A program made the position numbers and the translations under genes. A model generated the notes under the pieces. That model did no database searches, had not been told where the DNA came from, and was given only the letters and a program-made list of their open reading frames with translations. From positions 62,001 to 126,000 of the forward strand of contig CDROCS010000482.1 of the NCBI GenBank assembly GCA_977020255.1: a stretch of 64,000 nucleotides of DNA. Direction: 5' to 3'. The first letter of the stretch is position 1, and every line of letters begins with the position of its first letter. Source of the stretch: Obrimoposthia wandeli (lineage: Eukaryota). Below are positions 1,348 to 43,800 of the stretch, in pieces.

Positions 1348-1406
1348 TAAATTTATTTGTATTATTTTATATATATATAAACAATAGTGATACTTTAATA
1401 TTTATT

Positions 1407-1772: not shown

Positions 1773-1959
1773 TTACATTGCAATATAGATGCAGAGTGTC
1801 TTTGTTAGACACTCACACATATATATATATATATACATGTATAAGAATAAATGTTACTATTGATTACATAAAGATGCAAGTATTTGCAATATAGATGCGT
1901 GACTGTCTTTGTTAGATAGATATAGATTTTAAGTATGTTACTAAAAATATAATCTTTTT

Positions 1960-2390: not shown

Positions 2391-2436
2391 GTCCTCAGGG
2401 GGGGGCTTTGTGCCAGAAGTGCCACATCTACCTACT

Positions 2437-2780: not shown

Positions 2781-2839
2781 TAGAAATTTTTAAATTGTGA
2801 ACAAAATTGTACAGCGGCAGCTTAGAAGTTGCGCACATA

Positions 2840-4745
2840 CCGGTTTGTGACGATTGGTCCCGCGTCAGCTGGAGATTCATATGCACATTTATGATCTCTC
2901 GTTTGACAACGTGGACGGGGTAGCTGCGTGCAAACAGGAGACGACACAGCCGCTGCAACACCATGGCACTGGAGTCCACCCCACCTCCGAGACGGGAGCA
3001 GGCATCCTCCTCCTGGGTGGACAGAAGTTGTCAATTGGAAAATGTAGGATACGCAGTAATTTACACATTGATAAATTGTATCTGCAACAAATAAATGAGT
3101 GCAAGTAGAGAATTAATATACAGAATCAAAATGGGGTGTTAATTCCAAACAAACCTTGACATTCATCTATACACTGCGTGTGAAAGTTACAAATATGTAA
3201 TATATCATTTGAATGTATGCTAACTAAAATCTTGTTTCTGAATTAATCATTTAGAGAATTTGTAATCAAATAAGAATCGGATTGTTCAGCGATCCAGTCA
3301 CAGCATTCAAGTCTGCTCCGTTACTAAAGGCTTCTGGTTTTTCAGAGTCTCATAGATTTCCTATAAATATGGTTTCCTATACAATTTGGATGTGGACTTT
3401 CGGAGACAATAAAAATCGGCAGATTATCGAATTGAATGTCGCACTTTGTCTACAGACCGCAGAGGATTCTTCTTTACAAACCCACACCCCTGCTCATTAA
3501 AATTGGCCATACTGTTTCCTCTGACTTATTTGATCCTGTCTTCTTTCTGTCTTCCACGTAACCTTGTCGCTCTATAGACCTGCTTACATGTCGTTGCATA
3601 ACTTCTAAAAGTTCATCATAACCCATATTGATACTCGTATACATTTTGATATATTCGGATGTATAAACAACCAACATTTCTAATTTAGCAATAATAATAA
3701 GTATAAACAAATGTGAGTTTAAATTATTCTGTGAACCTTTAGATTTTCTTATCTTATCATTATTAGACGGAGGGCATGTGGTCGGATAATAGACGAGGGT
3801 ACTGGGACGAGACCAGTTAAATATCATCGAAGCAAACAGTTCAAAGACGATGTCAAATTCAATTCGTGATCTTTGCGCCCTTCCTTCGTCATTTTATGAC
3901 CCTTTCCCCCCTAAAGATCTAAATGCAAAACGTAAACATTCGGTAGGGGTTTCTTGCAAACAATCATAAAATGTGCAGTAGACTTCGATGTTGTTGATGA
4001 GCTTGGAGAGGATGTTTATAGCAGCTATTATCATGTTCGACGAGCCACCCACTCGTAGGGGCTCACGAATCTCACGTACGAATCTAAAGAGAAAATGTGA
4101 AATAACAAAAGTTTTGAGTTGAGTTTGTCACATTTAGAACTACAAGTTCATTTAAGTTACTCAAAATATGAATTAAAAAAGGATAAATAATTTTTGGGAT
4201 ATTTTAAAAGTTGTATTTGTCAGTTAAATTAGAGTACAAAAAGACTGTCCAATCCAGCGTGGTTTGAAAAAAATTGAACTTTTAGTTCTAAATTGTTCAG
4301 TTTTAACCGATTTAGCCGTGGACACAGAACAAAATTTATCAAACGTGTTCGTGTGCATTTGAGTTGTTTGTAAATGAATTTTGTTTTGAAAAACGCATTG
4401 ACGGTTTAAGAGAAATCTTTCTCACCCTTAATTGGTTGAGATGATCTATTATAAATATTTTTCAGTATTTAAATTGATGATCTTAATATTCTGATTGAGA
4501 CAACAACACAGTTAATGAAACAGACCAAATTGTGCACCTTGTGTTCTAGACCTATACGTGGAATGATGACACATGCATTTGTGTGCCGGAATTTCGCTGT
4601 TTACGTAGGCGTCGATGTGATGTTTCGATGGTTATAATCTGCATGTTTGATCTCGCTACAGCAACTCGAAACGCGACACCGGAGTGAAAACCCAGGTCGG
4701 TGGTTGTGGACTGGTGCAAGCAGAGACCCGTTCAAACGAATGAGA
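2840..4745 (-). other. Putative exons of an unidentified minus-strand host gene or pseudogene
   Basis: GC-richer segments with AG/GT borders: 4745-4605 joins 4083 onward in phase (..TSTP-T-FVREIREPL..), and about 2975-2840 reads EEDACSRLGG... An in-frame TAA near 3890 and no recognisable family. Confidence 0.35.
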
Positions 4746-13800: not shown

Positions 13801-16800
13801 TTAAATAGGGTTTTCAATAAAATTTATGATTTTCATGTGCTTGAAAGAAAAAATGAAGAGGAAATAAGAAAGATCAATGTGAAAGGAAAAGGTAGGCTCA
13901 TCTTTGTTATCTCAAGTCTGTCTTTAGAATCCTAGTATGGTGGTCCCCAACGTGAGTTCTATAAAGAAAGGGATTTAGGGGCCTACCTCGTATCAAACAC
14001 GTTTGGGGCTAATTTTAATGCTATGAACGAAGTGTACATTTTGTCAGAAAAATTCTAAAATTATTGTGGTTTTTTGTTGATTAAGCTACCCCATTAAAAT
14101 CCCTTCAAAAATGTCTGGCTAAGCCTAAAATTACCGTTCTGGCAGCTCTCGTCTCTATAATTTCTGCTTTCTTATATTCGGACAATTTTGTCTAAGTTCG
14201 ACTTCTGCTTGAGGCTCAGTTTGGGTTTTGTTGTTGTTGTAGATTTTGGTTATCTGTTCACATATTTGGAACTGGTCATTTTCCATCAATCGTTTTAATG
14301 CGCTATATGCCATTGGATGTGGTATTTACTTTGCAGCGTCTTCTAAGACTTAGAAATGTTGGGTTTTGGAGACGAAACAGTTTTTGGTCCCTCAAGGTTC
14401 TATTTCATTCCATTATTTTTCACTAACTCCTAACCTTAAAATTGTATTTTCGTCATTTTAATTTAATGTAAAAGTTCATTTTGTCTACCTATAAATACCT
14501 CGTTTTTTTGTAATTTCTTTCAATCCAAATTTCCGTGTACTATCTGTATACAAGAACAATAGTAGTTGCTTATGTCCAGTTCCGGTCACCTCCCTTGCGA
14601 AAACCAAAAAAAAAGTCCAAATTTCAAAAACATTCTATAATACCTCTTTTTTCTAAGGTCAATGTGAAAAGTATGAAAATTTTGTTATAGTACACATGAT
14701 TTTTGAGGGTTAAATTCATATATTTATGTCACCTTATACTATAATACGTCCTATTTTAGGTGATTTTGGTCTAAATTTATATGCTTTTGTTTAAACACAT
14801 CAATTTTTATGCGTGCAAATTTATAAACATACTATAACACGTATATTTTTTCAAAATAATTATTAATGAAGGTCACATTTTGTTATAGTACAAATGATTT
14901 TAAGGGTTAAATTCATAAGTAAATCATTATGTGTTATATTACGTCTGTTTTAAAACGATTTAACTCTAAATGTATATGTTTCAGTTTAAATGCATAGATA
15001 TTTATGCGCGCAAATTTAAAAAACATACTATAAAACGACTATTTTCAAAATCATTATTAGTGAAGGTCATTTTTTATTATAGTGCATATGATTTAATAGT
15101 CAAGATTCTATTTGTATTATATTTAATTCATTTTTAAATATGTTTTTTGTTTTACTTCATCAATGTCAGTGAGCGGGATTTCAAAAGTGTGTCAATTTTT
15201 GTAAAAAATCTTTCTTTTTAAAACTTTTTGTTGTAAACATTTTGTTGAAATAACTTTTCATTGTAAACATTTTCGTTATAAACATTTTGTTTTAAATCAT
15301 TTTTGTTATTAAATGTTTTGTAAACAATTTTTGGTTGTAAACGTTTTGTTTTAAATACTTTTTTCTTGTTAAATCTTTGATAAAAAACATTCAGTTTGTA
15401 ACATTTTTGTAAACAACATTTCGTTTGAAACTTAATTTTTTTAAAACATGAGTAAGATGATGTGTGTGTCTTTTGAATCACATGACTACATCCTTCCATA
15501 TTTCACACAAAGTGAGATGTATTCTTATGTTAGAAACATTTCATTAATATCAAAAAGACAAATCAAAATATGTAATAATATAGACATAAATCAACAGATG
15601 AAGAATAAAATAAAAAAAATGATACAAATACGATAAAAAATATACAATACATAATCATTCATTCATAATATACTCATCTGGATGTAGATAATGACCATAT
15701 GCAACTGACCGATTCTTTTCAACCCATTTTCGCTTATCATCCGCACTACACATTGCTATTTTAGATAAATGTATAGTATATAGCTGATGATTAACGGAAG
15801 TTATACGACTTTGTTGAACACGCTCACTTATGCCTGTCTTGTAAACAGCTAAGTAATTCTCGAGTTTTAAATTACTCTGTTTAAGATTAATACCCTTTGC
15901 TCTCATATGTGACTCAGCATTGATAGTTTTTAGATTATAACATTTTGGACGAAGAAATATACATTCCGTATAAGTACAAATACCCTTACTTTCATCCTTA
16001 AACTTTCCTAGCAGTGTTAGCTGTTAAATCAAGAGGGTGATTTTTAGGATACTTAGATGTGTCTAATAATCCATCAGAAACCATTGCTGGTAGCAATTGT
16101 GCTTCTACATCCACATTTCTACATTTCAAGAAGAAACTGTCAGTATCCCCAGAAACAATTCTAATATCACAACTAAATTCCTGACGATATTTCTCAAGTT
16201 GCACGTACTGGAGCTCATACATTCGCAATTTGCTAAGATCTAGTACAGCCTGCCCTATATAACTAGGCCTATCCAAACAAATCATGTCTTTATTCAGTAA
16301 AACAGCTATTAGATCAGAATCTATTTCTATCGTGCGTTGAAATTATGCCTTACTACAATAAATAACAAGTTTTCGAGACGTATTACAAATCCTTAAATTA
16401 ATTCGCTTTTCAAATTCTCAATCAACTTTCCAAATAGAAAATTAACTTTAGCTTATAATAATCTCGTTCAAAATCATTAGTAGCAATAGCCCTTTTTGTT
16501 GAATTGTCTTCTATATACTTTGCAAAAACATTGGTTTGTGCAAACCGAATTGTTCTATGCAAGAATTCTATTTTAGCCCCAAGCCTGAGTTACATCTGAA
16601 GCAAACGAGAATGGACAATGTAATGCTTCTCTGGATAATAAGTTAAAAGTAATTTAGAAGTACGACTTCCAGGCGGGCAATCCTTACGTGGAGCTAAGGA
16701 AAGATCGTCAAGTTTATCATGCAATTCATTCGGAATTCTTATATCTACTTCCATTAAATGAGCATAATCACTACAGCTTAGATCCTTATATGAGAGCTCA

Positions 16801-19800
16801 TGAATTATTACTTCTAATTCCAATCGGTCAGTTACCCTTGTAAAATCTCCAACCGGTAAAAATTGTTACATAGCCCATCCATAGAGATTGTTAACATCAA
16901 TGTACAAAATAGTATCACCCTCAGAGTTAGTAATCTTATGTTCGTTCACAAAGGTCATTCCTCCACGAATACCTTCCTCAAACAGTCGATGCATCTTAGG
17001 ATCTTGAATCAATTCCACACTAGATCCGCCTGGAACCCTTGGTCTTTCTACGGTTGATTCAGTACCCAGTAATGACTTGAAAGCGCTTGCAAATTTTAAA
17101 ATTATTTACAAATTAAATAATGAAAAATAATAATAATATTTAACCTGGAATAGAAAATAAATTTAGAGGTTCCAATCCATCATCGGTGATAGCCTTCTCT
17201 CAAAATGTTGTAAACACATCCGCAAGTAGATATACATCCATTTTGAGATATACCAAGATATTGTCCCAAAGAGATTCACACCCACTCTCGTACCAAACTT
17301 TCTCCGCCAACTCATATTGTTCACTTTTGATCTTTTCATCCCATTTTGATGGAAGGCTTGTTATTGATCGGAGAGCACTCTCTGATACCGCCATATCGTA
17401 TGGAAATATCCCTTTACCATTCACAAGATGAGGTTGAAAAACAGAATGTGTCAATGGAATGGAAACTAAGTTTTCCACGAGTTTATCAAGACTACTATTC
17501 AAAAACTGCAATGAATCGATGAAACGTATACAGACTCCTCCAATACGCACTATCATTGCTTGGAATTTCTCTGTTGATTGAGGTATAACAGATACATTCC
17601 ATTTAGAAATGTTGCTCAGCGCATGTTTGAGAATGTGATGGAGATCATACCCTCTCAGGTTATGAAACACCACTGGGAGAGTACGATTCACTCGTCTAGA
17701 TAAATTGCACTTACTGTGAGCAGCTCCAAGGTCATATGATAATGGTCTTGTACCTTTTGAATGCATGTCTTATTACAGAAGTAACTACTAGTAGCCGATT
17801 CGAAACTAGCTATTTACTTGGGCGTAAGTGCTTGTATAACTTCCGCTGCATGTCTCTTATACCAAGGCAAAACAACTGTCTTTATCAATATTTGCAGCTT
17901 TGAAAAAAAAAATCAACAACACAAGTTTCACCAGTGAAAAGCAAGAAATCTTGAGTGTATCCTGTTGCAGCAATTGGATACATTAACATACCGGCTACAA
18001 TGGGGAGATGAATTTGATGGTGAATGCCATGGGGTGGGAGAACTGCTTGAAAATCTCCGTAAACAACAAATGGTGGAGAAATCGTTTTTGAAAAATCTGT
18101 GAATTGAATATATTTGTCCTCCGGCATCTGGTATAGTGTATTATGTTCCATATTCATCATACAAAGAGGTTTATGCTTCTCAAAACTTATTGCCCGTCTA
18201 AATCCATGAAGACATTTATGACACCATTTACATCGGATTCGTGTAGAACCTTCTTCTTTGTTATAATAGTTTAGAAGCATATTAAGATTTGGAACTGTGA
18301 TGTAGTGATATTGCTTTCCTTCTTCCAACAGAATTAGATTAGCTGGATTGCCTTCGGGATTGGTGGTTCGATACAATATATCAATAAAAGGATTTTTAAA
18401 ATTATCCTGACCCGAAGAAGAAATGATGTCTATGTGATTTTAAGGGAATACATTTATTGAAAAGGATGAATTCTCTATTTCGAAACGAGGGATATCAGCT
18501 AATCTCATAAGCATATCGTTTAAAGAGTATATCAAATCTCCTAAATATAGATAATATTGTGAGACTCTATACCTATACTGAGAGATAATATCGTACTTCA
18601 GAATAGAAAGTATACTATAGATAAAACACAAAACACCTGTATTCTGAACATTCACAACCAAATTGTGAATTTCATTTGGTGTAGCAATATATGCTTTTCC
18701 TTGGATAATTAATTTCCGTGGTCTTAATGATAATAAAATTTATATCCAGGATGTGTTTGAGTTGCCAATTACTGGCATTCTGAGAATACTTCTAAATCTT
18801 AGCATTGAGAGACTCTATACCCCGATCGACGAATTCAGGTGAAAAGAAAGTAGCCTTGTTTGAAATATTCCATTTTTTCACTCCACTCTCATTCTTGAAC
18901 TCCACCTGGAGCCCGAATTGCACCTTACAAGAAGCGAATTCTTCAACTATTACTCTTAAAGAGTCAATAGAGTGCTGCAGCACATCTAATTCAATAGCAT
19001 TATACATGTATGTCCTAAAATAGACATGTTCACCAACTCTCCTTGTTTACATAGTAAATTCATGTTTGTTTTACTGTGTTATTTTTAACAAAGAAATTGA
19101 AATATAAACAATAAATTGATATAAACGTAACAATTTCTATAAACAAAAGAATTATTAGTGTTTAATCGATTACAAAATGACTAATGTAAGTAATTTATTT
19201 TTATATTATTTCATTGATTATAATTTTAGTGCAATATTAACAAAAATCTTTGCTTTAATCAATACCATTTGATTTGCTAAACCAAGATGCAACAATATTT
19301 TGGAACAAAGTTCTATGGACGTATTTTCTATATATGTCCTCAATGTGAAGCGGCTGAAGAAGACTGGGGAGCTTTTGTTTCCAACAATCACAGCTAGGAT
19401 ATTTTGGAGCTAAAGGAAAGAGGAATATAGTTTTCAATCAAAAGGGAATAAAATATGTTAAATCAACCTCCAAACCCGATAAAGTCTCATTGTCATTCAA
19501 TCCTGATCGTATATCTACTCATTTAAACAAAAAGCATATAAATTTAGACCAAAATCACCTAAAAAACAGACGTATTATAGTATAAAGTGACATAAATATG
19601 AATTTAACCCTCAAAAATCATGTGTACTATAACAAAATTTGACCTCTTTTTCACATTGACCTTAGAAAAAAGAGGTATTATAGTATGTTTTAGAAATTTG
19701 GGCATTTTTTTTTGGTTTTCGCTAGGGGGTGGGTTGCTGGAACTGGACATAAGCATCTACTAATAATGTATTACAATATAGTTATATACCGCAAAGGTTG

Positions 19801-22800: not shown

Positions 22801-25800
22801 CTAGATTAAATCCCAATGTAATACACCAATAACACTTATTAGCACTTGGTATCTGGCGAGCAGTGACAATCTTCCACATTGGACTAACTCAAAGGTATTG
22901 ATCGAGCCTGATTCCTTCACATTTGATTGTAACATTATACTTCTCTCCCATCGAACAAGTCTTCATCTTATCACATTTTTCAATCTTCAAAATCAGCTCT
23001 ACAGTATTGTTGGGCTTAATTTAAATAAAAAAAGAAAATATAAAAATTGTAATATAATTTTATTAAATACAAAAATGACCAGGGTGCCAACAATTATGAG
23101 AGTTCTCAAATCAAAATTTTAATATTTTTAAAAACGTTAACATATTGAAGAATAAAAATAACAAAAATAAAATTAAAAGAATAATGACCTGTCGAATTTT
23201 TTGTAGGGGGAGGCCAGTCACGATGTCCAGTAAAATTTTAATTTGTCTATCTACCAAAAACACGGGTTTTTATATCCCCCCAATCTTCATGCCCTGGTCT
23301 TCCTGTCGGGGCTTTTGAATTAATCTAAATGGTGTTTGATCATTTAGATAATTTGCCCATTTAGGTTCCATCGGGTAACCCATTAGTAGGTGTGTCTGCC
23401 TGTTAGTATTGTAAACATTTATGTACTTTCTTATACTATTGGACTTTTTTTACCCAAAGGTGGGATTTTGATGAACCGTACATTTTTCAAATGGAAATAA
23501 TTTATGCTTTAAAATTATGTTTTGTTCATTCATTGCGACTTTTAGATGTTTAGAAATTCTTCTTTAAAGTTTAATTAATTAATGTTTTAATTAACAAAAA
23601 TCACATTTTTTGTGGATCTTTCTTAATAGGAAAGTTGAAAAACTTTCGAACATACATAAATAAAATCGATATTTCATTACTAATTTATGTGTAGTTATGA
23701 TTTTGATCTAAGGTATTTATTTATAATTAAGGTGAATTTTACACAAAATTAATTAATATTTTAAAACTATTATTCTCTATTGTGGGTCATTACATAACAT
23801 TTTAATAAGTATTTTGGTATAAACTTTATTCAAAACTTAAGCAATTGTTATTTATTTGCTTAACATATTTTAAGGATATTAACTTAAATATTTGCTATTT
23901 TTTAATGTTCTTTTAAATTTAACTCTAACAGTATCTTATCTGTAAATTGAATTGTCTAAGATCGAATCCTAGGAAAAGAGGATCAATCCGATTTCGAAGC
24001 AAAAATAAATCATGAACTCCATATCATATGTTAAATATTCTTCAGTTTCCGTTGAAATTTTAACCTTGTTAATGAATTTAAATTCAATTGGGGGAATTCA
24101 ATCTTATATACAACGGAGATTTTACATTCATAAAACAAGAATGCAGCTTCAAGATGAGATAAACAGTTATTGTGACAAAAACAACCAAAATCATGGTATT
24201 TATTTTTAGTAAAATTGTAACATCTATTATTATTGGTTAATTTGAGGCTCATTTTTATATAAATGAAGAGATATTTCCTTATATTGTTAAACATGCAAGC
24301 AATTACCGATGTATACCAGCATACCCATACTTTTCACGGATATGATATGCATTTTCTCAAGAAGCCTATCCATTACAAATTTATATATCTAGTATCGTTG
24401 AAAAATGTCAAATTCGATTACTTAATTTCTGATAATATTAAAACAGATATAGATAGAATCAATCAAATACTTACAAAATCAATTGTGAGTATCATGTGCA
24501 AGAACCGAAATTCATTATCAAAAGAAATGATGCCAATTTCAGAAATATCGTTGGATCAAAACTAGATTTCTGCACAACTGGATCACAATGGAATATCAAT
24601 ATCAAGATACAAGGATACAAGAGTAGGTAGATGTGACACTTCTGAAACAAAGCCCCCTCCTAAGGACAAGTTCAGATCATGACGAGGACAAAAAATGTAG
24701 GTCAAGTTAAGATCAAGATGAGATCGAATCCTAGGAAAAGAGGATCAATCCGATTTCGAAGCAAAAAAAAAAAAAAAAAAAATTCTCCAAGTCGCTCTTG
24801 TTGGATGACTTGTGAGTATATCTTGCCTGTCGTTATACTGTGTTGACTACTTAGTCTCACGTCGAGAAACCTCTCGTAGTTGCCCAAATCTAGATCCACC
24901 TCTCCACCGTCAGCCAGCACAAAACACTCGCCATGTTCGTATGGTGAGAATGTTCCAGCGTCCATATTCAAATACGGATCAATCTTCACCGATGTCACAC
25001 GCTGACCACAACTCTTCAGAAGAGCACCAATGCTACTCGATATGATACCTTTTCCGATACCACTAATTACACCTCCACTGACTCATGAGGTCATGACCTT
25101 AAGAAAATCTAGGTCATGACCCCCTCTGCTGAGGACAAAATGTATTTGTCCTGAAAGACACACACCAAGTAGGGGGATGTGCGTCTTTCAGGACAAAGAC
25201 ATTTTGAGCATACCCCCCCCCTTGAGCACAGGTTAAGGTCACGATGAGGACATGACATCATGAGGACAAGTTAAGGTCACGCTGAGGTCATGACCTCATG
25301 AGGTCAAGGTCATTTGAGCTCATGTTAAGGTCAAATTTCTCCCGAGTACACCTGATTTTTTCAAGGTCACATGAGGTCAAAGTCATGTGATGTAGGTCAA
25401 ATTTCTAAATTTATTTAAACTAAATTATCTACTTATAAAAATAAGTATTATGTAATTTGATAAATATGTTTAAATTAAATTCAATTAAACTATCTACTTA
25501 TAAAATAAAGTATTATATAATTTGATAAATATGTTTAAACGTTCGTGTCTCTATCTAACAAAGACAGTTATGTACTGCATTTATATTGCAAAAACTTGCA
25601 TCTTTATGTAATTTATTCTTATACATGTATGTATGTGTGTGAGTGTCTAACAAAGACAGTCATCAATACTTACAAAGACAGTCACGTACTGCATCTATAT
25701 TGCAAATACTTGCATCTTTATGTAATCAATAGTACCAAGTCACGTACTACCTTTATTCTTATACATGTGTATGAGTGTCTAACAAAGACAGTCATCAATA

Positions 25801-28800
25801 CATACAAAGACAGTCACGTATGTGTGTGAGTGTCTAACAAAGTTAGGCATCAATAGCTACAAAGACAATCACGCACTGCATCTATATCGCAAACTTTATG
25901 TAATTACAAACTCTTTGGAGGTTTTAGTATAAGTTTTCTACCAAGATAGGCACTAGGATCCTTTTGAATTGCACTTACAACTTTATGTAATTTTACAAAA
26001 ACATCAAGCATACCATCCCCTTTTTGTATGCCATCCCTTTTTTGCAATCCATTCCCATTTTGTATACCTCTAATATAATCCACATTCTTTTTCTGTTTTA
26101 TAGCTTTTTTATCAACTCCACCAAACCATCTATCTAAAAGATTTCCTACCATCATATGAATATCCAAACCCTCCATGATTTTCTTTTTACTCATAGTCTT
26201 TTTAACCTTAGTCTTTTTCGACTTTAATGATTTAGTAGGTTTTTTAGTCATTTTCATAATAAATATTATTAAAGTATCACTATTGTTTATATATAAAATA
26301 AAATAATACAAATAAAGACACACAAATTTATTAGTCCACTCTAACAGCTTCAATTATTTTCCATATCGGAGTTTCCAATCCACTGGGCCCGATCTTGCAT
26401 CCTTGAATTCTGATTGAGAAAATCCATTCTAATTTAGGAGGAGGTCCTTCGAATATTGTTCCATTCTCCTGCTTGAAAGTTGCAGTTAATCCTTTGATTA
26501 TGAATTTGTTTTCCTGAAGCGCGTAGTTGATTCCGAATTGAGTCAAGAGAATATTGATTCTCTCTTTATCCACAGAAGTTAAATTTGATATTTCAAAATC
26601 AAATTTAAACGGCTCAATGTTGTGAGGAAAAATAAAATTATAGTTAAGAGCTTTCTTCAAAACGTGCATCTCATATCCATATTATTTATGCATAGGTTGA
26701 TATAGCTTTTCAAAATTCATATTTACAATTATAAATTGTTATAGTTATTCAATTGTTTATCCTCTAAAGCTCAATTCTAATTAGTCGATATTCTTGTTTA
26801 TGAAAATCGTTTAGTATTAGTCATATCCTTAAAGGGCTTACGTTCTTCGGTTACTCGTGTAGGACCTGTTATTGTTTAACTTGATGGATTAATATTTTCT
26901 CTCTGATTATTTATATTATAATTTCTATTAGAATATAAATTACTACCGGAACCTATATATGTACTAGCTCTACTTTGATATTTTGATTATTTTGATTATT
27001 CATTTTCTATAAAATCATTATCAAAATATTGTTTATACTGCTTTATTCTTAAGATAAAGACATCACATGACATTTCTTGTAAATACTAAGAATGTTACTA
27101 AAAATATATTTTCATTTACTATATAAGCTAGACAATTTCCACATTCAATGCTGTTATGAATACTAAATTTATTTCACATTATGTTTAGCAAAATGGAGAA
27201 CTCAGCATTAAACGACGACGTTTTGACAAGATTGCAAGAAGAAATGAAAATATGATATATGAAGAAAGAAGATTAAAATAATTACAAGCAAAGTTTACTG
27301 CTTTAGCGGATAAGGGCAAAAGCAGGATTTAATAAGCACGTTGATTCGAAGGATAATGTAAAGTGTGTTTACTGTCTGGGAGCAATATCGGAATGTGAGT
27401 ACTATCTGAAACCAATGAAGCGGCATCAGGTATTTTTCCCAAGATGCGCGTTTGTTTTGAAAATGAATGTTTCAAACGTACCAATAATTGATTCCAGCAC
27501 CAAACAAATTGATTTTGATTCAACTCCAATGGATAAGTAGTTATTGTACGCAATAATTATTCTAATGATATTGAAATACCTACATTATCGATTTTCGATC
27601 ATGTATATATTTGGAATGATTCTTATCGATGTTGTTTCTGTCAGAAAGCAGTACCCCGACTTGAGTTTATTGATACTATGCCCGAAAGAATCTTTCCTAC
27701 TCGAGATTGTAAAGCATCTAGTATGGGAATCAAGAACGGATGTATTGTTGAATATCATATTAGTAATGATGAAATTGATGCTCAGATGGAAACTCGTCAA
27801 ATAGCTTTGCTGAAACGTGATTATAGCCATGATATAATCAAAGCCGTTTTAGTTAATAGGTTTAAAACATTCGGTATTAAATATGATTATATATATGAGT
27901 TTATAACGGATTTAAGGTCTTTAGAAATAAAATATGAACCAAAACATCGTATAAATTATCTTGAGTATCTCTTACCAAATCCCGAATGTGTTGTTTGCAT
28001 GACGGGTGCGATTTCCGTGGCATTTTTACCATGTGGACACTTAAACACGTGTATTAAATGTCCAGATCGTTTTATTTCATGTCCATATTGCAATACAATT
28101 AACATTAGACGAGTAAGAAATATTACATTTCATAGTATCGGCAATTAAACAAAGACATGTAATCTAAAAATATATGTTCAAATCGTATAAAGAGAAGAAA
28201 TCAGTTTATAATAATCAAAAATGCTACTTCACAATATCAAATTAGTGAATATTAATTACAAGGGAATGGTTGTAAGTAACATTCAACACTTACCATTTCG
28301 GACTTCGAAGCCTCATCAATATCGACTCAAGTGTGAAGGTTACACTATGATCATTTTCAAATCTGGTAATTTATTTTTACATTTAAATATAATTATAATT
28401 TAGGAATATGCAAAATAATGGGTTGTAAAACAGTGCTGGATGAAAGCACTCTTCCTTTTGATATAAAAATCGAAAGAATCCAATCAATCAGTCTCAGCTG
28501 CAATCTAGAAACCCCAATAAACCTGAGCAAGATGAGCAAGAGTATGGGATCGGAAGCTGTTTACGAGCCAGAATTCTTCCCGGGACTTCGATACGTCAAA
28601 TAAAATCCACTATGCGTGACCATTTTTGCGAGCGGGAAGATTATGATACTTGGTGTTAAATCTTTAAACTATGAGTATCTGATTGAATGTATTTTGTTCA
28701 ATATAAATCTTCAAACTTGTGTTATTTATTTCCTAAACAAAGACAACCAAATAGTCGTAATGTTGCTAAAAATAGATTTATCTTAGAGACAAAGACATCA

Positions 28801-31800: not shown

Positions 31801-34800
31801 GGCCGGTATGCTCATGTCTCCAGTTGCAGCTACGATAGGGTACACACATGATTTCATATCTTTATTTTCTCCTTTATAATTATTTATTAATATTTAATAA
31901 GAAAGAATCATCACAGGTAAGGTTATGAATATATTGATATTTTTAAATAAGATGATTCATGAAACGATAGACAGAGAAATGATAATAATATGAATATATA
32001 TACTTCAATAAAATGGTGAGAAACTACGCTATCTTTAGAAATATCTTTAGAAACACCTAACCCCAATAATTATTTAATAATCAATAGCTGCTTGGAGAGG
32101 TTTTCCTAAACATCGAAGTCTTCTACATAATTAACTACATTACTCCACTTTATACTCCAAATCTCAATAAAATACTATATTAGAAATATCATTAGGAGCT
32201 CCAATGATCAGCGACTTTATGCTGGTTGATGATACTGAAAAAACTACTGAGACTGAATGTTGATAATAATATCGGTAATTTCTGTGTTTCAATAATCGAT
32301 TTTTATATACAGTAATATATAAATTTATGGTATTTGGAGATTTCTCTGAAAGTTAGGGCCATGTTTAAAGTTTTTGATAGAAGATTCATGAAAAGATAGA
32401 CATAGAAATGATAGTAATGGATAGATAAACCTCGAATTGTGTTTATTGATTTTAAGATTCATTCGCACTCATATAAAATTTTAAATATTTTCCTTCTACA
32501 CCATCACTTGATCATCTAACTCAAATATAACAAGGAAACTCTTAATATCTTAGTTTTTACAACAACATTTTTACAACTAAAAGTTTATCATATTGGTTAA
32601 ATAGCTACAACGTAGTGTATTTTTAAATAACTGCAACGTAGTTGATTTTAACCAATCAAAATTAAGATAGAAATTGATGTATAAGTAAAGCTAAAATTTA
32701 AAAGTCATTAATAATAATTGGCTATATCGTTTTTATGTACATCATTCTTTCCATTATAAACGTAGCACTATGTTTTATTTTTGAAAAACATCCATCATAT
32801 GTTTGCTTTGTCATTTCATAACTACTTTGATGAATGAGGTACCGTTATTTAACTGGGCTGCTTTATGTTTAGTCTTTATAAATATTTATAAGTTTAAATA
32901 ATATATATTGGTTTGCTTTCCTGGATTCTGTGCTATTCTCTCCTTAAACCCTAATACTTGTTATATTTATCTTCTTAAACCTCTTAGCCTCTACGTTATA
33001 TTCCTCTTCTGAAATCTCCTGTAAACCTATTTTAAGGCAATATTTTCTTTTCTGAAACCTCCTAAGAAACTGTTAAATCCTCCTCTGAACATTTTTTAAG
33101 GCCTTCATTTCCTCTTTTGAAGCCTCTTGGACACCACCGTTAAATCCTCCTCTGAACCCATTTTAAGACTATAAATTATCTTCTGAAACCACATGAACTC
33201 ATCCGTTAAAACCCTCTCTAAACCTCTTCTTATGCTATTTTTTTCTTCTGAAATTAACATCCCCGTTAAATCCTCCTCCTTTAAATCCATTTTAGTATAT
33301 ATTTTCTCTTCTGAAATGCCTTAAAAACCCCGTTCAATTTTCGTTTGAAATCTTATAATTACTAAGTAATTTTTCCTCTAAACACCTTGTAATTTTTTTA
33401 TAATACCACGTATGCTTAGAATTCTCTTCAGAATCACATAAATATCACAAATTACCTGAACATCTCCTTAATTTATCTTCCAAACCATCGAATACCACAA
33501 ATGTTATATACAATGCATTAATTCCTTCTCTATACATATCCTTATTCTAAATCAGCTTTCCTCTAAACAATCTTAATGTCACAAATCTCACAAAAATCAC
33601 CAAATATCACATCTCGAGGAATTCTCTTCTAGAAACACCTCGTTAATTTCCTCTCTGAACAATGATGGTTTAATTTCATTTCGAAAATTATTATTGGATA
33701 TATATACCAAATTTCAATAAAATTCTATATTAAAATAAGATTGACTTAGAAGCTCTGATGACTTAAGTCAGTTGATTGATTATGGTTAAGTTTGTATAAT
33801 ATTGATAAATTCAATGAAAAATATCCACTTCATCAAAATTATGCATGTTTTGATATGTTAAAATGTTTAATAAATCGATTTAAAATACTTATAGATAGAA
33901 ATAATAGATAAATTATTCCAATATACGCAGTATATTTATATGCATATTTTAAAATGTATTGACTATTATAGTTAATAATTAAATAAATATTTCCAATTAT
34001 ATTATTTATATCAAAAATTTCAAAAATTTCAAAAAAATAATATATCCACTTTTTATTTGATGATTAACTTCTATAAAAGTTTTTTATCACTTCATTATTA
34101 AAATGTTACAAATTGTATTACTTTAAAAATCATACATATGCGAAACTGATTTATTTTTGATCACAGTTTTCATTACTAAATCAAATACATTTACTATACT
34201 AGTAGGTGGATGTGTCCGGTCTAATCCACACCCCCCTCTCCCCTACTGTCCTTTAAAACCGTGCATGTGTGTAGTGAAATTTCGTGTAGGTGTGTGGAGT
34301 GAAATTTCGTATATGTGTGTCTCCATTCCACCCAAAGGGGGGAGGAAGGGGGGTACCCCCGCACCCACCACATTTTTTAAAAATTTTACAACGAATCTCA
34401 AAAGTGGTTAGAGAAGACCACGAGAATCCATATTGACCACGGCGGCTTTTCGCAGACGAGATTTCAAATATTACTACTATTTTTAAGAAAGATTTTAGAT
34501 TAATAAATTACTACATGTTAAATATCTATGTCAGTTTTAGAATTTAGAGGAGAAAAAATCGGTCAGATCTATATAATTTAGAGAAGAAAAAAACAAAATA
34601 CGAGACAAAATTATTTTTCAAAATATTTATTAAACATAAAACAACATATTGGCTTCACTCAAAGTCCAGAGAGGCTGTATTTTCCCGTCATCAGCAAAAT
34701 ATCCATTGAGACGTGTTGAGATATTCCATAGTTCTTCATCTAGAATTGGAGCAATCAAATATCCTAGATCATCTTTAAAATCCAGACCGGGATCAGTTTC

Positions 34801-37800
34801 AAGCTGGAAACAATTTCCTTCATATACATAATCAGGAATGTAAAATCCCAAAATATTTTTCAATTGATCAATATCAGTTGTTGTTAAACTTTCGATGAGA
34901 TATTTATTCTGCACTTTTGATATTTTCAAAGGATTCATAACTCGTATAATTTGATGCCTCTTTAATATATTACATAGTTTTCCTTTTGAAATTCTTTCTG
35001 GATAATAAAAATTTGCTACACATCTCTTATCCATTCTAAAATAAAGAAACTGATTAAAAACAATGTTTATAAAAAAAATACATATAAGATACAAATAAGA
35101 TACAAATAAAACTGATTATTAATTGCCAAATGAAAGAAACATAGTAAAACCGATTACAATTTATTACACGCAAAAAGTTAAAACATAGAAATATGAGCAC
35201 GTTCAATTTTCCACATAGGCAACTTTGTTCCCATTTCATCTTTCTTGTAACCATAAAGTCGAATTGTTAGAGTCCATTGCTTCTTTTTTGGAAAGGCATC
35301 AATATCAACATATCTTCCATAGTCATCTAGAAATGCTTCATCGGCTCCTCGGATATAAAATTCGTTCTTATTGAAAGTAAAATTTGGAACTGCCCTTTCA
35401 ACTTTCTGTTTAAGATATTGAAAATCAGGTTTTTGAATACCTGATAGATAGTAGCTGAACTTTCTTCTTTCAATTGTCACAGGATTTACTAAAGCAATCA
35501 GTTGAGCCTTCTTCAAGAATCTGACTTTGTATTTGAAATATTGTTTCACTTCTTCATACATATCCTTATCCGATTCTTCAAACATTTCTTCGTCATCGCT
35601 TAATACCCGTTGGCTATCGTCCATCGTTGATAATTGTCTTTGATATGAATGCATTTACTATGATTTGTCCTCCAATGGCGCATTCTTTTATACTAATTTC
35701 TAACAAAGACATGAATCTTATTGGTTAATATAACTAAAGCATTGAATTTGATTGGACTAAATCTATATTAAAAATCAAAATTGATTGGAAGAAATATATC
35801 ATCCAATTATAATAGGTTAGCAAGATAATTACAAGAAACGTGCAATAAAAAAGCAGGTTCAGACATATATAAAGAAGATTTTACAGAATACAATTTCAGT
35901 CTAATGAAACTCGTAAATATAAATTATAAAGGTAGAACAGATGATGATGTTTTGTACTTACCATTCAATGAATGGAAGCCGAGACAATATGTAGAAATGT
36001 TTGACTATTTCACAGTTGTTATTTTTCCTACAGATTAGTTTTTTTATTTCCATATTGAATTCTTTTAGGAAATTGTCGTGTTATGGGATGCAAAATACCA
36101 ATGCTTGGGTTCAATTTACCATTTGGAATTCGAATCACTGCAATACAATCAATCACGATTTCGGCTAATCTTGGGAAACAGATAAATCTTTTTAAAACTG
36201 CAGAGAAAATGAAAGAAGAATGCATGTTTGAACCAGAAATTTTTCCTGCTCTCAGTTATTTGAAGTTTAAACCGCTATGTGTAAATATATTTTCCAGTGG
36301 TAAAGTTATGATATTGAGATTGAAAAATTTTGATTATCCAGACATTGTTGATTTGATTTTAGAAAATATATCTTATTACATCTTGTTATCTTTTTCTATA
36401 AACAAACCCGTTTAAACTTATTGTTTCAAATGAATAATACTATAAATAGAGACAATGCAGTGGATCGGCTTGCCGACGAAATATTTTCTGGAAAAATTAG
36501 GGGTAAAGAAATTTTATCAGAATTAAAAAATAATGATATAACAAGAGATAACATTGAAATATTGGTTAGATCACACGTTATTCGAGAATTTAGAAATCGT
36601 ACACAAATAAATAAAATTATAGTCACATATTCATTAATTAATATTTGTATTTCATCTACAATAGCTCTAACATTGTACATTTCGATAAGAAAACTTCTAT
36701 AATAATATAAACAAAATTAAAAATGAAAGAGTATATACAATGGAGCTAAATAATAATGCTGTATTTCAAATAGTTGGCCCTAGTGAAAGTGGAAAGACAC
36801 ATTTCGTCTGTAAATTGTTGCAAAAATGAATTTCTTTTCAAATCTAGTTTCAAAAATATATTTATTTGTATCATGGTGGAGAAGGGGAAAGCGGGTTAAC
36901 CAAAACAGAAGTTTGCAAGTGAAGGGTATAAAGTTTATTGAAGGATTTGATGCAAATTGGTGTGAAAGATTGAAAAAAGAAGATGTAATAAAAATTGATG
37001 ATTTGTATGAGGAGGCTAACAAGGAATCGGACTTTAATAATTTATTTACAAAGATTGCAAGACATCGTGAAGTAACAGTTATATTTATCACTCAAAATCT
37101 GTTTCACCAAGGAGGTCACCATAGAACAAGAAATCTTAATGTACATTACTTAGTTTTATTTAAAAATCCTAGAGATCAAACAGTTGTTGATTTTGTGGCC
37201 AGACAGGCATTTCCTCAAAATAAGAACTTTCTAGTTGATTCATTCCACGATGCTGCTAAACAAGCACATGGGTATATATTTATTTGACTTTACACAAGCT
37301 TGCTCAGATGATTTACGTGTTTTAACAGACATATTTAATTCTAAGGGAGTAACTGTTTATAAACAAATAGAGAACAATTATAAAAAATAAATTCGCAATG
37401 CATTTTACAAAGTTGATAGTAAAACGTAAAGTAAAATCTAAGAAATCAAAAAAAAGAATCATTAAGAAAAAAGAAGTGAAAAAATTAATCAAATCTGTAG
37501 TTAAAAAAAAAAAAAAAACTTAAATGGCTTCGAATATAAACAATATTTAAATTGAACCTTTTTTATTAAAATGAAGAAAATACAAAGAAGCATACCCTAT
37601 TTTAAAGCTTTAGTCAAAGCCTCTTCTAATAAGAGAATGATTATTCTTAAAGCATTTCCATCTTTTGTTGTAGATGATTTATTGGAAGTTTTGTGTAATA
37701 TAGTTTTGGGTCGAGTAAAAGTTGGAAATCGGAAAAATATATTAATGAAATATAGAAAAACTCTTCTAGATATTGCTAATGTAAAAAGTAAAAAAAGGAA

Positions 37801-40800
37801 ACGAAATATTATTCTTAAACAGAATGGTGGTTTCATAGGGGCTCTTATTCCAGTTGTTGCTTCAATTATGAGTAGTATTATAGCTGCGACATAAACAATT
37901 ATTTCTAAAATCAGCTAAAGATATGGGTGCTAGGCCTTCTTTACCTAAACTTAAATTTTCTTTCTATTCCAATTGTTGTAATGGAGAAGATATGGTTCAA
38001 TCCAAAAGATCCAATTGGCTACACAGGAGTTTCAAAATTAGCAAAAAGAACAAAACAAAATTACAAGAAAACGCAGAAATGGCTGAGCGACCAGTTAGCC
38101 TACAGTCTGAACCAGCCGATGAGAAGAAGGTTTCCAACTAGAGCTTACAAAACCAGCGGTCCTAATAATTTATGGCAGATGGATTTGATGGAGATGATCC
38201 CATATTCTTCCATTAATAAGGGATATCGATATATTTTAACATGTATTGATGTATTTAGCAGGTTTGCTCGTGCAATTCCACTTAAAGCAAAGTCTTCAAT
38301 AGCTATGCTTGAAGCCATTAAAGAAATATTAAAAGAGGACATTCCACAAAATGTGCAAACTGATTTAGGAAAAGAATTTTATAATAAGCAAGTTCAATCA
38401 TTATTTAAACAAAATAATATAAATCATTACTCTGTGTTTTCACAATACAAAGCAGCAGTAGTAGAAAGATTTAATCGTACTCTAAGAGATCGAATAAAAA
38501 AGTATTTCACAAAAGAAGGAAATAAAAAATGGATCCAAGTTTTACCTAAAATAATACATGCATATAATCACTCGGAACATAGAGGTCTCAAGGGAATGAG
38601 ACCTGTTGATGTTACTAATAAAAATTCTATGGATATTTGGATGAACAGGAATAAAAAAGAAAATATTAAAAAAGCAAAATATAAGAAAAACGAATATGTC
38701 TGAATTTTGAAAATTAGCTCTACTCCATTTATTAAAAACTTTGATCAGAATTGGAAGCATTGCCGGTGAATCCAGTTCCGCCAGGCTTTCGTCCAAACCA
38801 GCGTCATCCCAGGCCCTCTTCAAGTTCTGGCTGGTTGTTGGACGAGGAGAAGTAGTCTCATGCAGATGTGGTTGACTCGAGGACGGACTTATCTCGATCG
38901 GCAATACTGGGATCCTCTCGTATAAAATTGAACCGTCGTCCACTGGAGATGGGAGAATCTCCTGCTGGCTAATCACCGCCTCAGAATAATGGCCAATTGA
39001 GGTGCGAATGTTTCTCGAGCGCTTCGTCTTTTTCACCTCTGCCGGCTTTGTCCTTTTCTTAGGGAAAGCAGTAACTTCTCCCCAAGTCTCCTCAATTATC
39101 TGGACAGGTTCCTGCAAATGAAAACATTAATAAAATTTCAAATAAATTTTATTTAATTAAAAAATATTTAAAATACCAAAAAATTACCTCAATACTCGTA
39201 TACGGAAGTTTTTCCTGCCGCTCAATCGTTACTTCGCTCGATTTGAGTAGACAGGATTTCGCCTTTCTAAGACGCCGTACTGCAGCCCGCCTCGTTCACT
39301 CCTGCGGGAAAGGAGAAATTTTGGCCCATGTCTCCTCAGTTAATTGTATTGGTTCCTGCAACAAAAAACATAAATAAAATTTAAACATATAAATAATTTA
39401 CCTCAATGACGGGCAGATTAGCCTGTTTCGCCAACTTGGCCTTCTTCCGATGGACCGTATTGGTTTTGACTCGATGGCGTCGAGGTTTCTTAACTGATGC
39501 TTGCTTCCTATCGACGGGTAATCTCCGAGTTGCCTCCTCCCAAATTTCCTCCACCAATTCGGCTTCCTATGTGTATAATTAAATAAATTTACTTATTTAT
39601 AATAATATACTTCAAATTTAGCCGGAGTCGGTAGGTAACGCTGATCACTCCTGGGATCATCCTGGCTACATTGACTCGCCAAGTACTGCGGTTCAATTAG
39701 CCTCTCAATCGTGGTCACTGACGGTGCCAAATCCAGTTGCAGTTTCTGAAAATAAAATTAAAAAACATTTTAAATAAATGATGTCTAACCTCATTCGTCG
39801 CCTTTATTCTCCTAACAGGACGTATCGGAGATTGTGGCCTTTTGAATGGATCAGGCACTGCATTGTTGGATATCGGAGTCGGAGTTGTTGAGGGAGTGAT
39901 ACCATCCCATTCGTCGGTGAACAGATCCCACTCATCTTCATCCAATTCTGCAACCATGGACTCGTTGGCTCCTGGGGCTCCGATACTTGGCTGTATCCAT
40001 TTCTCCTCCCCATCCGACGGAACGTCATCAGTAAACAGCTCCTCGCCTGAGTCTGGTGCCAGTATTATCTCCGGTTGAGACAGAGGGATCAATTTCCAGG
40101 GGCATTTGATTGCCGCCTCAAAATTGTCAAAGAGATTGGATCTCCTTGCTGCTACTGCTGAAGTTGCCGGACGATTGGCTTCTGTGTTCAGCCTGGGAGT
40201 ACAGTCTTCCCAATTCTCTATCGAATCCTGACTAGTCAGATCGATATATTGGGATCTCTGTACCTCACCTCGCACGCTCATTGGTTCTTCTCTTGGAGTT
40301 GAGCTGGCCAATGGTGCTTCTTCTTGTAACAGCTCCGCTCTTGCTGCTGCTTCTCATTCGTCTCCTTTGCTCACCACCGACGAGTCTTGACTAAGTAAGT
40401 CAAGGTACTGCGCCGGTGGTGGCGTTCGCTGCTGTACTGGAGAGAGATCCCCATACAGTTGAACCTCCGTCTCTTCATCCAAATCGACGTTGTTGAAAAT
40501 TGGCATTATTAATTATTGATTAATGATATTTGATTTATGAAAAATAATGAAAAGAGGTTTCCTTATATACAAAAATAATAGACTAACCCTCTTTTGTCGT
40601 CCAATGAGAGCGGGTTATTCAAATAATTTATTTTAAAATCAGTAGGCTTTTCTCAATTTTTTAACTATGTTTGAATGCTAGAATGTCATAGGATAAAACA
40701 TATTTTATTCGAAAATATAACTATTTTCTTAAGATTTTGTTGCTTAAGTTTAACGTCCAATGAAAACGTATTATTCCAAGAATTTATGATATTTTCTTAA

Positions 40801-43800
40801 ATTTTGTTGATGTTTGAATACATGTATATCTTTGGATTTAAAATAGTAATATTTTTTTGACTGTACATGTTTGGATGGTATAAAAAATTCATGAACTCAT
40901 TTAAGGTCAAGTTAAGGTCATGACCTTATGAGGTCATCATCATGAGGTCAAGGTCATTTAAGGTCAACATGAGGTTAAGGGTACAAAGTTGTCTAGGTCA
41001 TCATGAGATCAAGATCATTTATGGTCATGATGACTAATTTGATGACTCACCAAATAAAAATGAAAATTATTTCGAATTTATGTAATTGATTATTTAAATT
41101 TTTTTTGCTACCCTATATATGTATCTTTCTTATAAATTATTATAAAGAAATTTTTTTTAAGACATTGTATATATGTATAGATATAAATTTTTGTTGTTGA
41201 GTGTTTGGGAGGGGGGTAGAAAACCTTTCTACACATCTGCATGGAATTTCACTCCACACACATGCACGGTTTTAAAGGACAGTAGGGGGAGGGGGGTGTG
41301 GATTAGACCGGACACATCCACCTACTTATACTATAAAATATATTTACATTTTAGGTTACTGTGAAGCGATAAACGATTTTATTGACCTTAACTTGATTAA
41401 AATACAGAAATTTATTATCCATTGACACAAAATGATATTTAAAATGTAGATTAGTGTAAGTCAAAGAATGTAATATACTCGAAGTTACACAAGGTTACTT
41501 AATTTAAAACAATTAATTCAAAATGTAATACATTTAGGATTTATTTTTTCAATTTATTGAAAACGACAGTATTTTATCAATTACTTTTTATGTGATGGAA
41601 TAATACAGTAATAACTTAAAACATGTTAAAGGAAATATATGCAAAATATATTATGTTTACAAGTAAATTTCAAATATCTAGTAAACAAAAAATTTAAATA
41701 CTTAATAATACTTAATTACTTAATAATAACTTATATTTGAAAATTATATTATAGACAGTCGGGGCGATACAATTAATAAGTTTATAATTTGGAATGTTTT
41801 GTTTTTGAAGTTTAAAAATAAAGTCACTTGACAAAAATCACAACAAAAATGCGGACAAGTAAAACAAATTAACATAAAAAATGAAAATTTTTGTTGAAAA
41901 ATATTGAATATTATATTAATTATATGTTGTCAAGAATAGCTAATTATTTTGTGATTATTATAATTATTATTATACCTATATTCTGCCATACTCTCTAATA
42001 CTAGTTCATTTACATATACATTCGATATAGCTTACTTGATTTTATTTACTCTTGCTATCCCTTAGCACCATTTTCATATACACTACCTAACTCTTATTTT
42101 CATTTACTTATTTCTAATTCGCATTCGTACTTGGTTTCATTTACATACATTCTAACTCTAATTTATTCCAACTTTCATTCAAATTCATTGATACTTTTAC
42201 TGATATTCATTCATATTTGGTTTCTGTAGGTCTAACATTTGTAATTGTACATGTATAAGTTCTTACTTGAATTTGTAATTGCATTCATAATTCTACTCGC
42301 TTTTATTTAAATGTGTTCATTTACATCCAAGGACCTTAATTTTACTAGTTCACACAATAATTTTTATAATATTTCTTAGAAAATTGAATAATATATTGAA
42401 ATATTAGATTGATAGTCAAATATATGAACAATTTGATTGATTTATATGTTAAACAATATAATTAAAAATTTTATATTCTAAGTTATTGACAAAGCTTTCA
42501 GAAAACTTTGAAAAATATAGCTTTAGAAATAAATTTGCAATATTCTATACAAAACATTTTTTGTTGAATTATTTTATTAGAACTTGTATGTTTAAAATAT
42601 ATTTTAAATATTTATAAAGAAAAACGAAAAATGATAATATTCAAATTATATATATATATTTACATTCAAGTTTTTTGAAAATAAAGAATTCAAATTCAAT
42701 TGATAAAAAATCTAATTAATGAAATTTATCAAATGAGATAAGGAATATTTAATTATTTCAATGTGTAGGAATGAATTTTGATCATAGTAGCATTTAAAAA
42801 AAAAGTAAATAAAAATAAATAAAATGTGAAAATAAAAATATGGGAAAATTTACATCTAAAATAATAGAATTGTAATCAAATTACTAATATTATTCATTGA
42901 TTGTTAGTATTTATTTGTTAATTAGTTAGTAAAAACAATAATTTGTATTTCTTCATTTCAAAATTTAATTTGTAATTATTAAATTTCTAATATTTTCATA
43001 AATGTTTTAAGACATAAATTACTAATATTGAAGCATGCTATTTTGAATTTTATAAATATATATAACGTTTAATTTGTATTTGAATATACAATTGTTTGAG
43101 TACATCAATGACAACAATAAAAAAACACACACATAAATGTCAATATTTGTTAAAATTGTTATTTCACAAAATGCTATAAAAATTTAAATGAATTAATAAA
43201 ATGAGATGTGGACTTTTAAAGAAAGAAATTTGTAAAAATTATGTAAAGTGGGTTAATATTTTGTATTATTCTATATTTATTTTTAAATTAAATTTGTATT
43301 TTAGTAATTGCTTGTTGAACTTAAAGTAATTAATTTTTTTTCTAAATTAAAAATATCAAATAATCGTTGTAAATTATTTTATTTTAATAAATTATTTATA
43401 ATTTTTATTAATTGCAATGTATTTGAAATATAATTTTTTTGTCATTGTTTTAATACATTAATTGTATACAATAATAAAGCACAATTTTAATGTAATACAT
43501 TTATAATTTAAAAAAAGAAGAAGTTACACTAGTTGAAATAATGATATTAGTGTTTCAAAATTACGTCAAAGGAGTTAATCAGTCCACGTATGATAGGTGT
43601 TCGGATAGGGATACTAAGTGGGCTAGAATCCATCCTTCCACGTACTTTCCCTCTATCCATTCATCCGCCCTCGATTCATTCATCTGTCCATCCATCTATC
43701 TCCCTCCATCCCACCCTCCTTCCCACCCTCCTTCCCACCCTCCTTCCCTCCCTATCTCCCTCCATCACTCCCTCCAGATCTTCATCCCACCCTTCATCAG

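What the first reader, a model, noticed from the sequence alone, without database searches (positions are those of the whole stretch)
14561..19761. A polymerase-only mini-Polinton with integrase-type TSD: possible satellite or segmented system
Seen: D is TIR, a pPolB running from N-terminal domain to C-terminus, then TIR. No fragment of integrase, ATPase or capsid is visible, yet it has a 6-bp TSD (one mismatch). Nearby C is complementary: integrase and ATPase, no PolB. Inference: D could replicate on its own and borrow integrase in trans, as a satellite or one segment of a multipartite Polinton. Against: C shows an apparent deletion junction, B and E link PolB to other genes, and D's ends match C's for only about 5 nt. 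A clean deletion derivative remains plausible.
Basis: partly seen in the sequence, partly recalled or inferred. Interest (0 to 1): 0.72.

Follow-up and report, generated by a model that had tools for sequence, protein, structure and literature searches.

The report
Polymerase-only satellite lineage of Polinton viruses
This 5.2-kb element is a broken, one-off copy from a high-copy family of virus-like insertions that mostly carry only a DNA polymerase gene, keep that gene under purifying selection, and likely borrow their integrase from complete Polinton viruses in the same genome.

Summary
D is real: 240-bp TIRs, a 6-bp TSD with one mismatch, and pPolB as its only gene. But D is dead and unique. 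Its pPolB has 7 stops, 6 frameshifts and an inverted 5' end, and both internal junctions occur once in the genome. It is best read as a two-deletion product of a 12-14 kb palindrome.

The family is the finding. Of 34 D-ended elements mapped end to end, 28 have distinct TSDs and none carries integrase or ATPase. Of the 28, 22 are pPolB-only (4.4-14.5 kb; monomers and palindromic dimers), 3 are geneless and 3 are chimeras with a complete family. Substitutions shared among copies are depleted of amino-acid changes (pN/pS 0.22, against 0.86 for private ones), also without CpG sites. So the lineage spread with a working polymerase and likely took integrase in trans.

C is not a partner segment. It is a 10-kb deletion of a complete Polinton family with 14,966 exact ends. 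An unsampled complete parent is not excluded, and one D-capped locus has integrase in cis.

The parts
14555..14560 (+). left copy of 6-bp target-site duplication (aacaat)
14561..14795 (+). left terminal inverted repeat, older family terminus AGTAG(T/A)TGCTTATGTCC
14615..15094 (+). subterminal direct repeats about 200 bp apart (74% alike)
15451..15480 (+). internal terminus-like motif, possibly the relic of an earlier end; internal in 51 of 52 distinct copies checked
15655..19003 (-). broken pPolB (PolB1 lineage), codons 145 to end, with endonuclease-VII-like insert; 7 stops, 6 frameshifts
17100..17144 (-). 45-bp GT-AG intron of pPolB; acceptor lost in D
19002..19046 (+). first junction and a 45-bp piece of the family's non-coding tandem-repeat region
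19047..19520 (+). piece of the opposite (right) arm: upstream region plus pPolB codons 1-80 (ATG at 19287), inverted relative to the main gene
19522..19761 (-). right terminal inverted repeat; its junction with the inverted piece is unique in the genome
19762..19767 (+). right copy of target-site duplication (aataat)
   Evidence: a contig crosses this end into unique flank in runs X1 and X2
34201..41326 (+). element C (comparison, candidate helper family): TBP, ATPase, integrase; TSD TATACT; 10-kb deletion at 38748-38755 removed capsid, protease and pPolB

Best explanation
D is a dead, single-site deletion product of a palindromic member of a high-copy lineage of Polinton-derived elements that mostly encode only a protein-primed DNA polymerase, have kept it under purifying selection, and likely use the integrase of complete Polintons in the same genome. 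Shown: the anatomy, the TSDs, the absence of integrase and ATPase in every mapped element, the selection signal, and that the two arms of each palindrome descend from one arm. Inferred: (1) the lineage arose by deletion of the middle of a complete Polinton; (2) a linear form is copied by its own terminal-protein-fused pPolB from the terminal origins; (3) a displaced single strand folds back and copies its own left arm, which gives palindromic dimers and lengthened TIRs; (4) the integrase of the C/E family (closest termini, by far the most copies) or of the F family inserts it with a 6-bp TSD; (5) template switches swap ends and halves with other families. D then lost the centre and most of the right arm, before or after insertion, and decayed.
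For: Of 34 D-ended elements with both ends located, 28 have a TSD with at most 1 mismatch (23 exact, all different) and 0 of 34 have an integrase or ATPase hit; 22 of the 28 are pPolB-only. The same queries find F-family integrase at 69-73%. There are 386 exact D-type ends. In 43 near-full pPolB copies pN/pS is 0.86 for private changes and 0.22 for changes shared by 3 or more copies (p=1e-14); in the 34 copies with no capsid seen in cis it is 0.88 against 0.21. The contrast holds without CpG-touched sites: transitions 1.33 against 0.38, transversions 0.89 against 0.19. PolB1 is its own clade (support 97), 78-82% identical to F's polymerase and 54-64% to C/E's and one other type. D maps as left arm + inverted right-arm piece + terminal 249 bp of the family structure; C2263b and C2904 show similar one-sided deletions. 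Arms are closer to each other than to any other element in 9 of 9. A remnant of the neighbouring gene sits upstream of pPolB in 4 of 6 copies probed plus the reference monomer. Termini match C at 13-16 of 17 nt.
Against: The sample is 83 PolB1-bearing stretches of 126 held, mostly picked by likeness to D, and most were not mapped end to end. Six of the 34 mapped elements lack a matching TSD. C9 has a D end, a mosaic pPolB and F-type integrase, ATPase and TBP in cis (no capsid; far end unresolved). D-type terminal caps also sit on other families' bodies (C6522, C90), so 386 is not a count of pPolB-only elements. Only 3 of 43 copies have no break. Three of 9 two-armed elements share a stop in both arms, and C2078 shares a 1.6-kb insertion in both, so some copies were made without their own polymerase or were converted after insertion. 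Shared variants were counted per site, not on tree branches, and the two-copy class is not depleted once CpG sites are removed. No expression or extrachromosomal form was shown.
Confidence: 0.62

Rival explanations
1. Ordinary non-autonomous debris. A complete PolB1 Polinton (unsampled, collapsed in the assembly, or exogenous) is the master; the pPolB-only copies are its repeated deletion or copy-back products, and selection acted only in the master.
For: A gene remnant upstream of pPolB shows descent from a complete element. C9 has integrase in cis. Sampling is partial. C shows that plain deletion derivatives arise in this genome. 40 of 43 copies are broken.
Against: The same gene-less arm of about 2 kb follows pPolB in old and young copies across the tree, which independent deletions would not give. 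None of 34 mapped elements is complete. All capsid genes found on D arms are 88-99% identical in DNA to family F, and 11 loci share one junction.
Confidence: 0.23
2. The master is the two-polymerase, capsid-bearing chimera (D arm + capsid + protease + second pPolB, no integrase or ATPase). pPolB-only forms are its by-products.
For: Eleven loci share the chimeric junction, and 3 chimeras have exact TSDs. The capsid is a double jelly roll. Shared changes within the 9 chimeric copies are also constrained (2 N against 10 S).
Against: Eight of the 9 chimeras form one nested clade (support 99) and older capsid-less copies, D among them, branch outside it under midpoint rooting. The selection signal stays when chimeras are removed.
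Confidence: 0.1
3. D and C are segments of one multipartite Polinton virus.
For: Complementary gene content in the window and similar termini (13 of 17 nt).
Against: C equals L038x minus 10 kb that holds capsid, protease and its own pPolB. C-type ends outnumber D-type ends 14,966 to 386. D-family sizes vary from 0.4 to 14.5 kb.
Confidence: 0.03

Closest known systems
Polintons/Mavericks (polintoviruses)
   Same: pPolB with catalytic motifs, TIRs, 6-bp TSD (13-25 kb, 100-1500-bp TIR, 5-8-bp TSD in passages of 10.1101/2023.08.22.554363). Co-resident families C/E and F are complete members.
   Different: The D lineage has no integrase, ATPase, capsid or protease of its own, and its TIR can grow to 5-7 kb and hold the whole polymerase gene.
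pPolB + TIR remnants without integrase in C. elegans (10.1101/2024.01.15.575659, passages)
   Same: pPolB next to a TIR with no integrase, at 10 loci.
   Different: Described there as remnants; the passages read report no selection test, no palindromes and no separate polymerase lineage.
Linear plasmids and transpovirons (PMC11071308, passages)
   Same: Capsid-less elements built around a terminal-protein-fused polymerase; transpovirons arose by loss of the structural module and depend on a helper virus.
   Different: Those are cytoplasmic or mitochondrial plasmids or giant-virus parasites, and transpovirons have a polymerase-helicase fusion. The D lineage is chromosomally integrated with integrase-type TSDs and has a spliced pPolB.
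Copy-back and snap-back defective viral genomes (PMC13506859, passages)
   Same: One end copied onto the other, giving panhandles or full palindromes.
   Different: Here they are heritable chromosomal insertions of a DNA element, and the retained gene shows long-term purifying selection.
Non-autonomous Polinton derivatives and MITE-like deletions (recalled, not from a call)
   Same: Keep the ends and are mobilised in trans; the 0.4-2.2-kb geneless D-ended copies fit this.
   Different: Such derivatives are expected to lose coding constraint; this lineage kept it on pPolB.

Membership tests
Autonomous Polinton/Maverick | protein-primed PolB | tested here: met
   PF03175; broken in D, no break in 3 of 43 family copies
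Autonomous Polinton/Maverick | TIRs and 5-8-bp TSD | tested here: met
Autonomous Polinton/Maverick | RVE integrase in cis | tested here: not met
   0 of 34 mapped elements; exception C9, unmapped end
Autonomous Polinton/Maverick | packaging ATPase in cis | tested here: not met
   0 of 34; query supported as a Pox_A32-like lead (26% of one cluster)
Autonomous Polinton/Maverick | double jelly-roll major capsid and protease | tested here: not met
   absent in D and in 22 pPolB-only elements; present only in chimeras with family F
Autonomous Polinton/Maverick | minor capsid (penton) | not tested
   no penton query was identified in any family
Multipartite virus (bidnavirus-like) | complementary segments with no complete single-molecule parent | tested here: not met
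   C has a complete parent
Multipartite virus (bidnavirus-like) | fixed segment size and co-packaging | tested here: not met
   sizes 0.4-14.5 kb; packaging itself not testable
Satellite / helper-dependent replicon | repeated integration without own integrase | tested here: met
   28 distinct TSDs
Satellite / helper-dependent replicon | own replication gene under purifying selection | tested here: met
Satellite / helper-dependent replicon | no complete parent of the same lineage | tested here: inconclusive
   none in 83 PolB1-bearing stretches, but sampling is partial
Satellite / helper-dependent replicon | extrachromosomal replication and helper identity shown directly | not testable with these tools
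   only contigs of one sample were served
Copy-back/snap-back defective genome | arms derived from one end | tested here: met
   arm-arm distance below nearest other element in 9 of 9; private variants in both arms in 8 of 9

The most novel reading that the evidence does not exclude
The D family is a true satellite of Polinton viruses in an animal-type genome: a long-lived, polymerase-only linear replicon that parasitises the integrase, and perhaps the capsids, of complete Polintons. Its termini have drifted towards those of the dominant helper family, and it dimerises by copy-back into 11.5-14.5-kb palindromes close to helper genome size. It would be a living intermediate on the route from polintovirus to capsid-less linear plasmid.
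Probability: 0.3. Interest if true: 0.8.

Novelty: new variant of a known kind. Interest (0 to 1): 0.58.

Why it matters
Polinton surveys usually require pPolB plus integrase (both nematode papers read here filter that way), so a polymerase-only lineage would be dropped as debris. This one shows integration in trans, copy-back, end swapping and selection on the polymerase, all readable from one genome. Those steps of the Polinton life cycle have been proposed but are hard to observe. It also gives a concrete case for the proposed path from polintoviruses to capsid-less linear replicons. D itself is only a fossil of that family.

Tried and rejected
Targeting of other Polintons: rejected. 9 of 29 outer D flanks hit a Polinton library against 63 of 200 control windows (the controls come from 20 arbitrary 10-kb stretches of contigs that also hold D hits).

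A parent starting at the internal terminus-like motif (15451): rejected. It is internal in 51 of 52 distinct copies; the other is a truncation.

C6522 and C251 as a complete PolB1 element: rejected. The D element ends at an intact terminus and an F body lies beside it.

F-family end count: my pattern was a rare variant and gave 1 hit, so there is no count for F.

Reads: no RNA holder listed. A palindrome centre junction was not bridged by listed contigs, which is inconclusive. Contig depths were not used as copy numbers.

Capsid identity: Pfam and PDB sequence search found nothing; the fold search did.

The careful protein tree did not finish; the quick tree is quoted. The script stopped at the tenth element (C908), so counts are of 9.

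Earlier findings of this scan: none returned.

Literature: eight full-text searches listed no paper whose title or abstract describes a polymerase-only or palindromic Polinton lineage. Repbase, the 2006-2007 founding papers and all supplements were not seen and may bear on novelty.
Full report
Observation. D spans 14561-19761 between aacaat and aataat. Its TIRs align at 89.7% over 243 columns. The interior holds minus-strand pPolB fragments (PF03175 E=1.3e-12) and nothing else among the queries for integrase, ATPase, capsid, protease and TBP. A contig crosses D's right end into unique flank in runs X1 and X2 (one sample, possibly the assembly's source). The gene is dead: 7 stops and 6 frameshifts over 1094 of 1248 codons, codons 1-80 inverted at 19287-19520, codons 81-144 absent, and the acceptor of a 45-bp intron lost. 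D's ends match C's at 13 of 17 nt.

D is one rearranged member of a large family. The genome (1.35 Gb, host not identified) gave 1459 first-look candidates for D's TIR, 2102 for its polymerase (40 scored each) and 386 exact D-type ends. I held 126 stretches (1.78 Mb), 83 with at least 1 kb of D-type polymerase (PolB1). Against a natural 7.0-kb monomer (L088), D is bases 1-4253, then 4953-4476 inverted, then 249-1 inverted. That is what a palindrome gives after losing its centre and most of its right arm. Such palindromes exist with exact TSDs: 11.5, 12.4, 12.7, 14.0 and 14.5 kb, the four measured having arms 96-99% identical. Both D junctions occur once genome-wide with one mismatch allowed; older copies with more changes would be missed.

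Architecture. I located both ends for 34 D-ended elements. Twenty-eight have a TSD with at most one mismatch (23 exact, all different); six do not. None of the 34 has an integrase or ATPase hit. Of the 28, 22 are pPolB-only (4.4-14.5 kb), 3 are geneless (0.4-2.2 kb) and 3 are chimeras with family F. The pPolB-only class has D ends on both sides or a D end with a B-type end. Most loci were chosen by likeness to D; 16 came from an exact-end list in contig order, five of them picked because both ends were listed. One locus goes against the pattern: C9 has a D end, a mosaic polymerase and F-type integrase, ATPase and TBP, no capsid, far end unresolved. D-type caps also occur on other families' bodies.

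Helpers, and C. C equals the complete element L038x minus 10 kb at 38748-38755; the missing part holds capsid, protease and a different polymerase. This C/E family has 14,966 exact ends and at least 150 integrase copies at 99% identity. Family F is also complete: 5 TSD-flanked copies of 12.8-14.2 kb among 10 loci fetched carry TBP, ATPase, integrase, capsid, protease and polymerase. The capsid call rests on a predicted model (pLDDT 88) matching iridovirus, PBCV-1 and mavirus double jelly rolls (best E=1e-16). Every capsid gene seen on a D arm is 88-99% identical in DNA to F's, and 11 loci share one junction. So C is no partner segment, and the capsid on D arms is borrowed.

Selection. PolB1 is a separate clade (21 rows, support 97, quick tree; 18 of 60 PolB1-like rows were drawn at random), 78-82% identical to F's polymerase. 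I compared 43 of 47 near-full copies, dropping four second arms. Private changes gave 713 N and 223 S (pN/pS 0.86). Changes in three or more copies gave 74 N and 90 S (0.22; p=1e-14). The 34 copies with no capsid seen in cis gave 0.88 and 0.21. Without CpG-touched sites the contrast stays for transitions (1.33, 0.38) and transversions (0.89, 0.19), though the two-copy class is then not depleted. Copies decay after insertion, but the templates that left many descendants had a working polymerase. In the DNA tree 8 of 9 chimeras form one nested clade and D is among the oldest branches (midpoint root). A remnant of the gene that precedes pPolB in complete families lies upstream of PolB1, so the lineage descends from a complete Polinton.

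Mechanism. Shown: ends, TSDs, gene content, selection, and single-arm ancestry of palindromes (arms nearest each other in 9 of 9, private variants in both arms in 8 of 9). Inferred: protein-primed replication from the termini by the element's own pPolB, which in Polintons carries the terminal protein (PMC11071308, passages); fold-back of a displaced strand to make palindromes; insertion by a helper integrase, most likely C/E's, given 13-16 of 17 matching terminal bases and its abundance. Three of 9 two-armed elements share a stop in both arms, and one shares a 1.6-kb insertion. So polymerase can also come in trans, or arms are converted after insertion. Packaging in helper capsids is speculation; doubling a 6-7-kb arm gives helper-like sizes by itself. 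There is no sign of targeted insertion into other Polintons (9 of 29 against 63 of 200).

What is known. I read passages only, found by keyword, of 10.1101/2024.01.15.575659 (pPolB + TIR without integrase at 10 C. elegans loci, treated as remnants), PMC8097293 (vertebrate Mavericks: at most 287 copies, 96% defective), 10.1101/2023.08.22.554363 (definition and filters), PMC11071308 (terminal protein, linear plasmids, transpovirons), 10.64898/2025.12.11.693146 (Maverick-driven genome growth in Dugesia, family level only), PMC13506859 (copy-back and snap-back genomes), PMC11131425 (nothing relevant) and PMC4028283 (core genes). Eight searches listed no description of a selected, polymerase-only or palindromic Polinton lineage. 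Repbase, the founding papers and supplements were not seen. That non-autonomous Polinton derivatives exist is recalled, not from a call. Family letters (B, C/E, D, F) and the labels PolB1 and EXO are mine; PolB1 is not the nematode pPolB1.

Verdict. D itself is an ordinary fossil. Its family works like a helper-dependent, polymerase-only satellite and fails membership as an autonomous Polinton or as a segment of a multipartite virus. Best explanation 0.62; unsampled complete parent 0.23; chimera as master 0.10; segmented virus 0.03. New variant of a known kind; interest 0.58.

Noticed in passing
genome-wide; window 34201-41326: Extreme Polinton load: 14,966 exact copies of one 28-nt end, at least 150 integrase copies at 99% identity with no stop in the matched 170 residues, 63 of 200 control windows Polinton-like.
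   Followed up: partly
L139/L140 (C1472), L145/L146 (C80): Complete 13-14-kb family F whose long TIR (about 1.3 kb) contains the 3' end of its polymerase gene, suggesting TIR growth by copy-back there too.
   Followed up: partly
L047, L037, L042, L065, L149/L150 (C1808): Two-polymerase chimeras: D arm + capsid + protease + second pPolB, without integrase or ATPase; 11 loci share one junction; ends are heterologous yet TSDs are exact in 3.
   Followed up: yes
L135/L136 (C6522), L265 (C90), L085, L088: Terminal caps of about 25-30 nt and 270-290-bp end modules are swapped between families.
   Followed up: partly
L073/L074 (C2078): A 1.6-kb insertion with no other match in my sample interrupts pPolB at the same site in both arms (99.3% identical).
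   Followed up: partly
L257/L268 (C9): D end + mosaic pPolB + F-type integrase, ATPase and TBP, no capsid; far end unresolved.
   Followed up: partly
window 24622-33606: B-type element with IAP (BIR + RING), TBP, dual-specificity phosphatase and a third polymerase type; a CTP synthase fragment lies at 24705-25082 between two terminus motifs.
   Followed up: no
window 34633-36412: TBP-like gene and two paralogous unknown genes at the left end of the C/E family; TBP also occurs in families F and B.
   Followed up: no
window 201-1915 and 25669-27439: Two 82%-alike B-type pieces in opposite orientation 24 kb apart, on either side of D.
   Followed up: no
L101/L102 (C1235), about 5.7-9.4 kb into the stretch: Cluster of ORFs that look like Rep and superfamily 3 helicase genes (label from recalled motifs, untested) beside Polinton DNA.
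   Followed up: no
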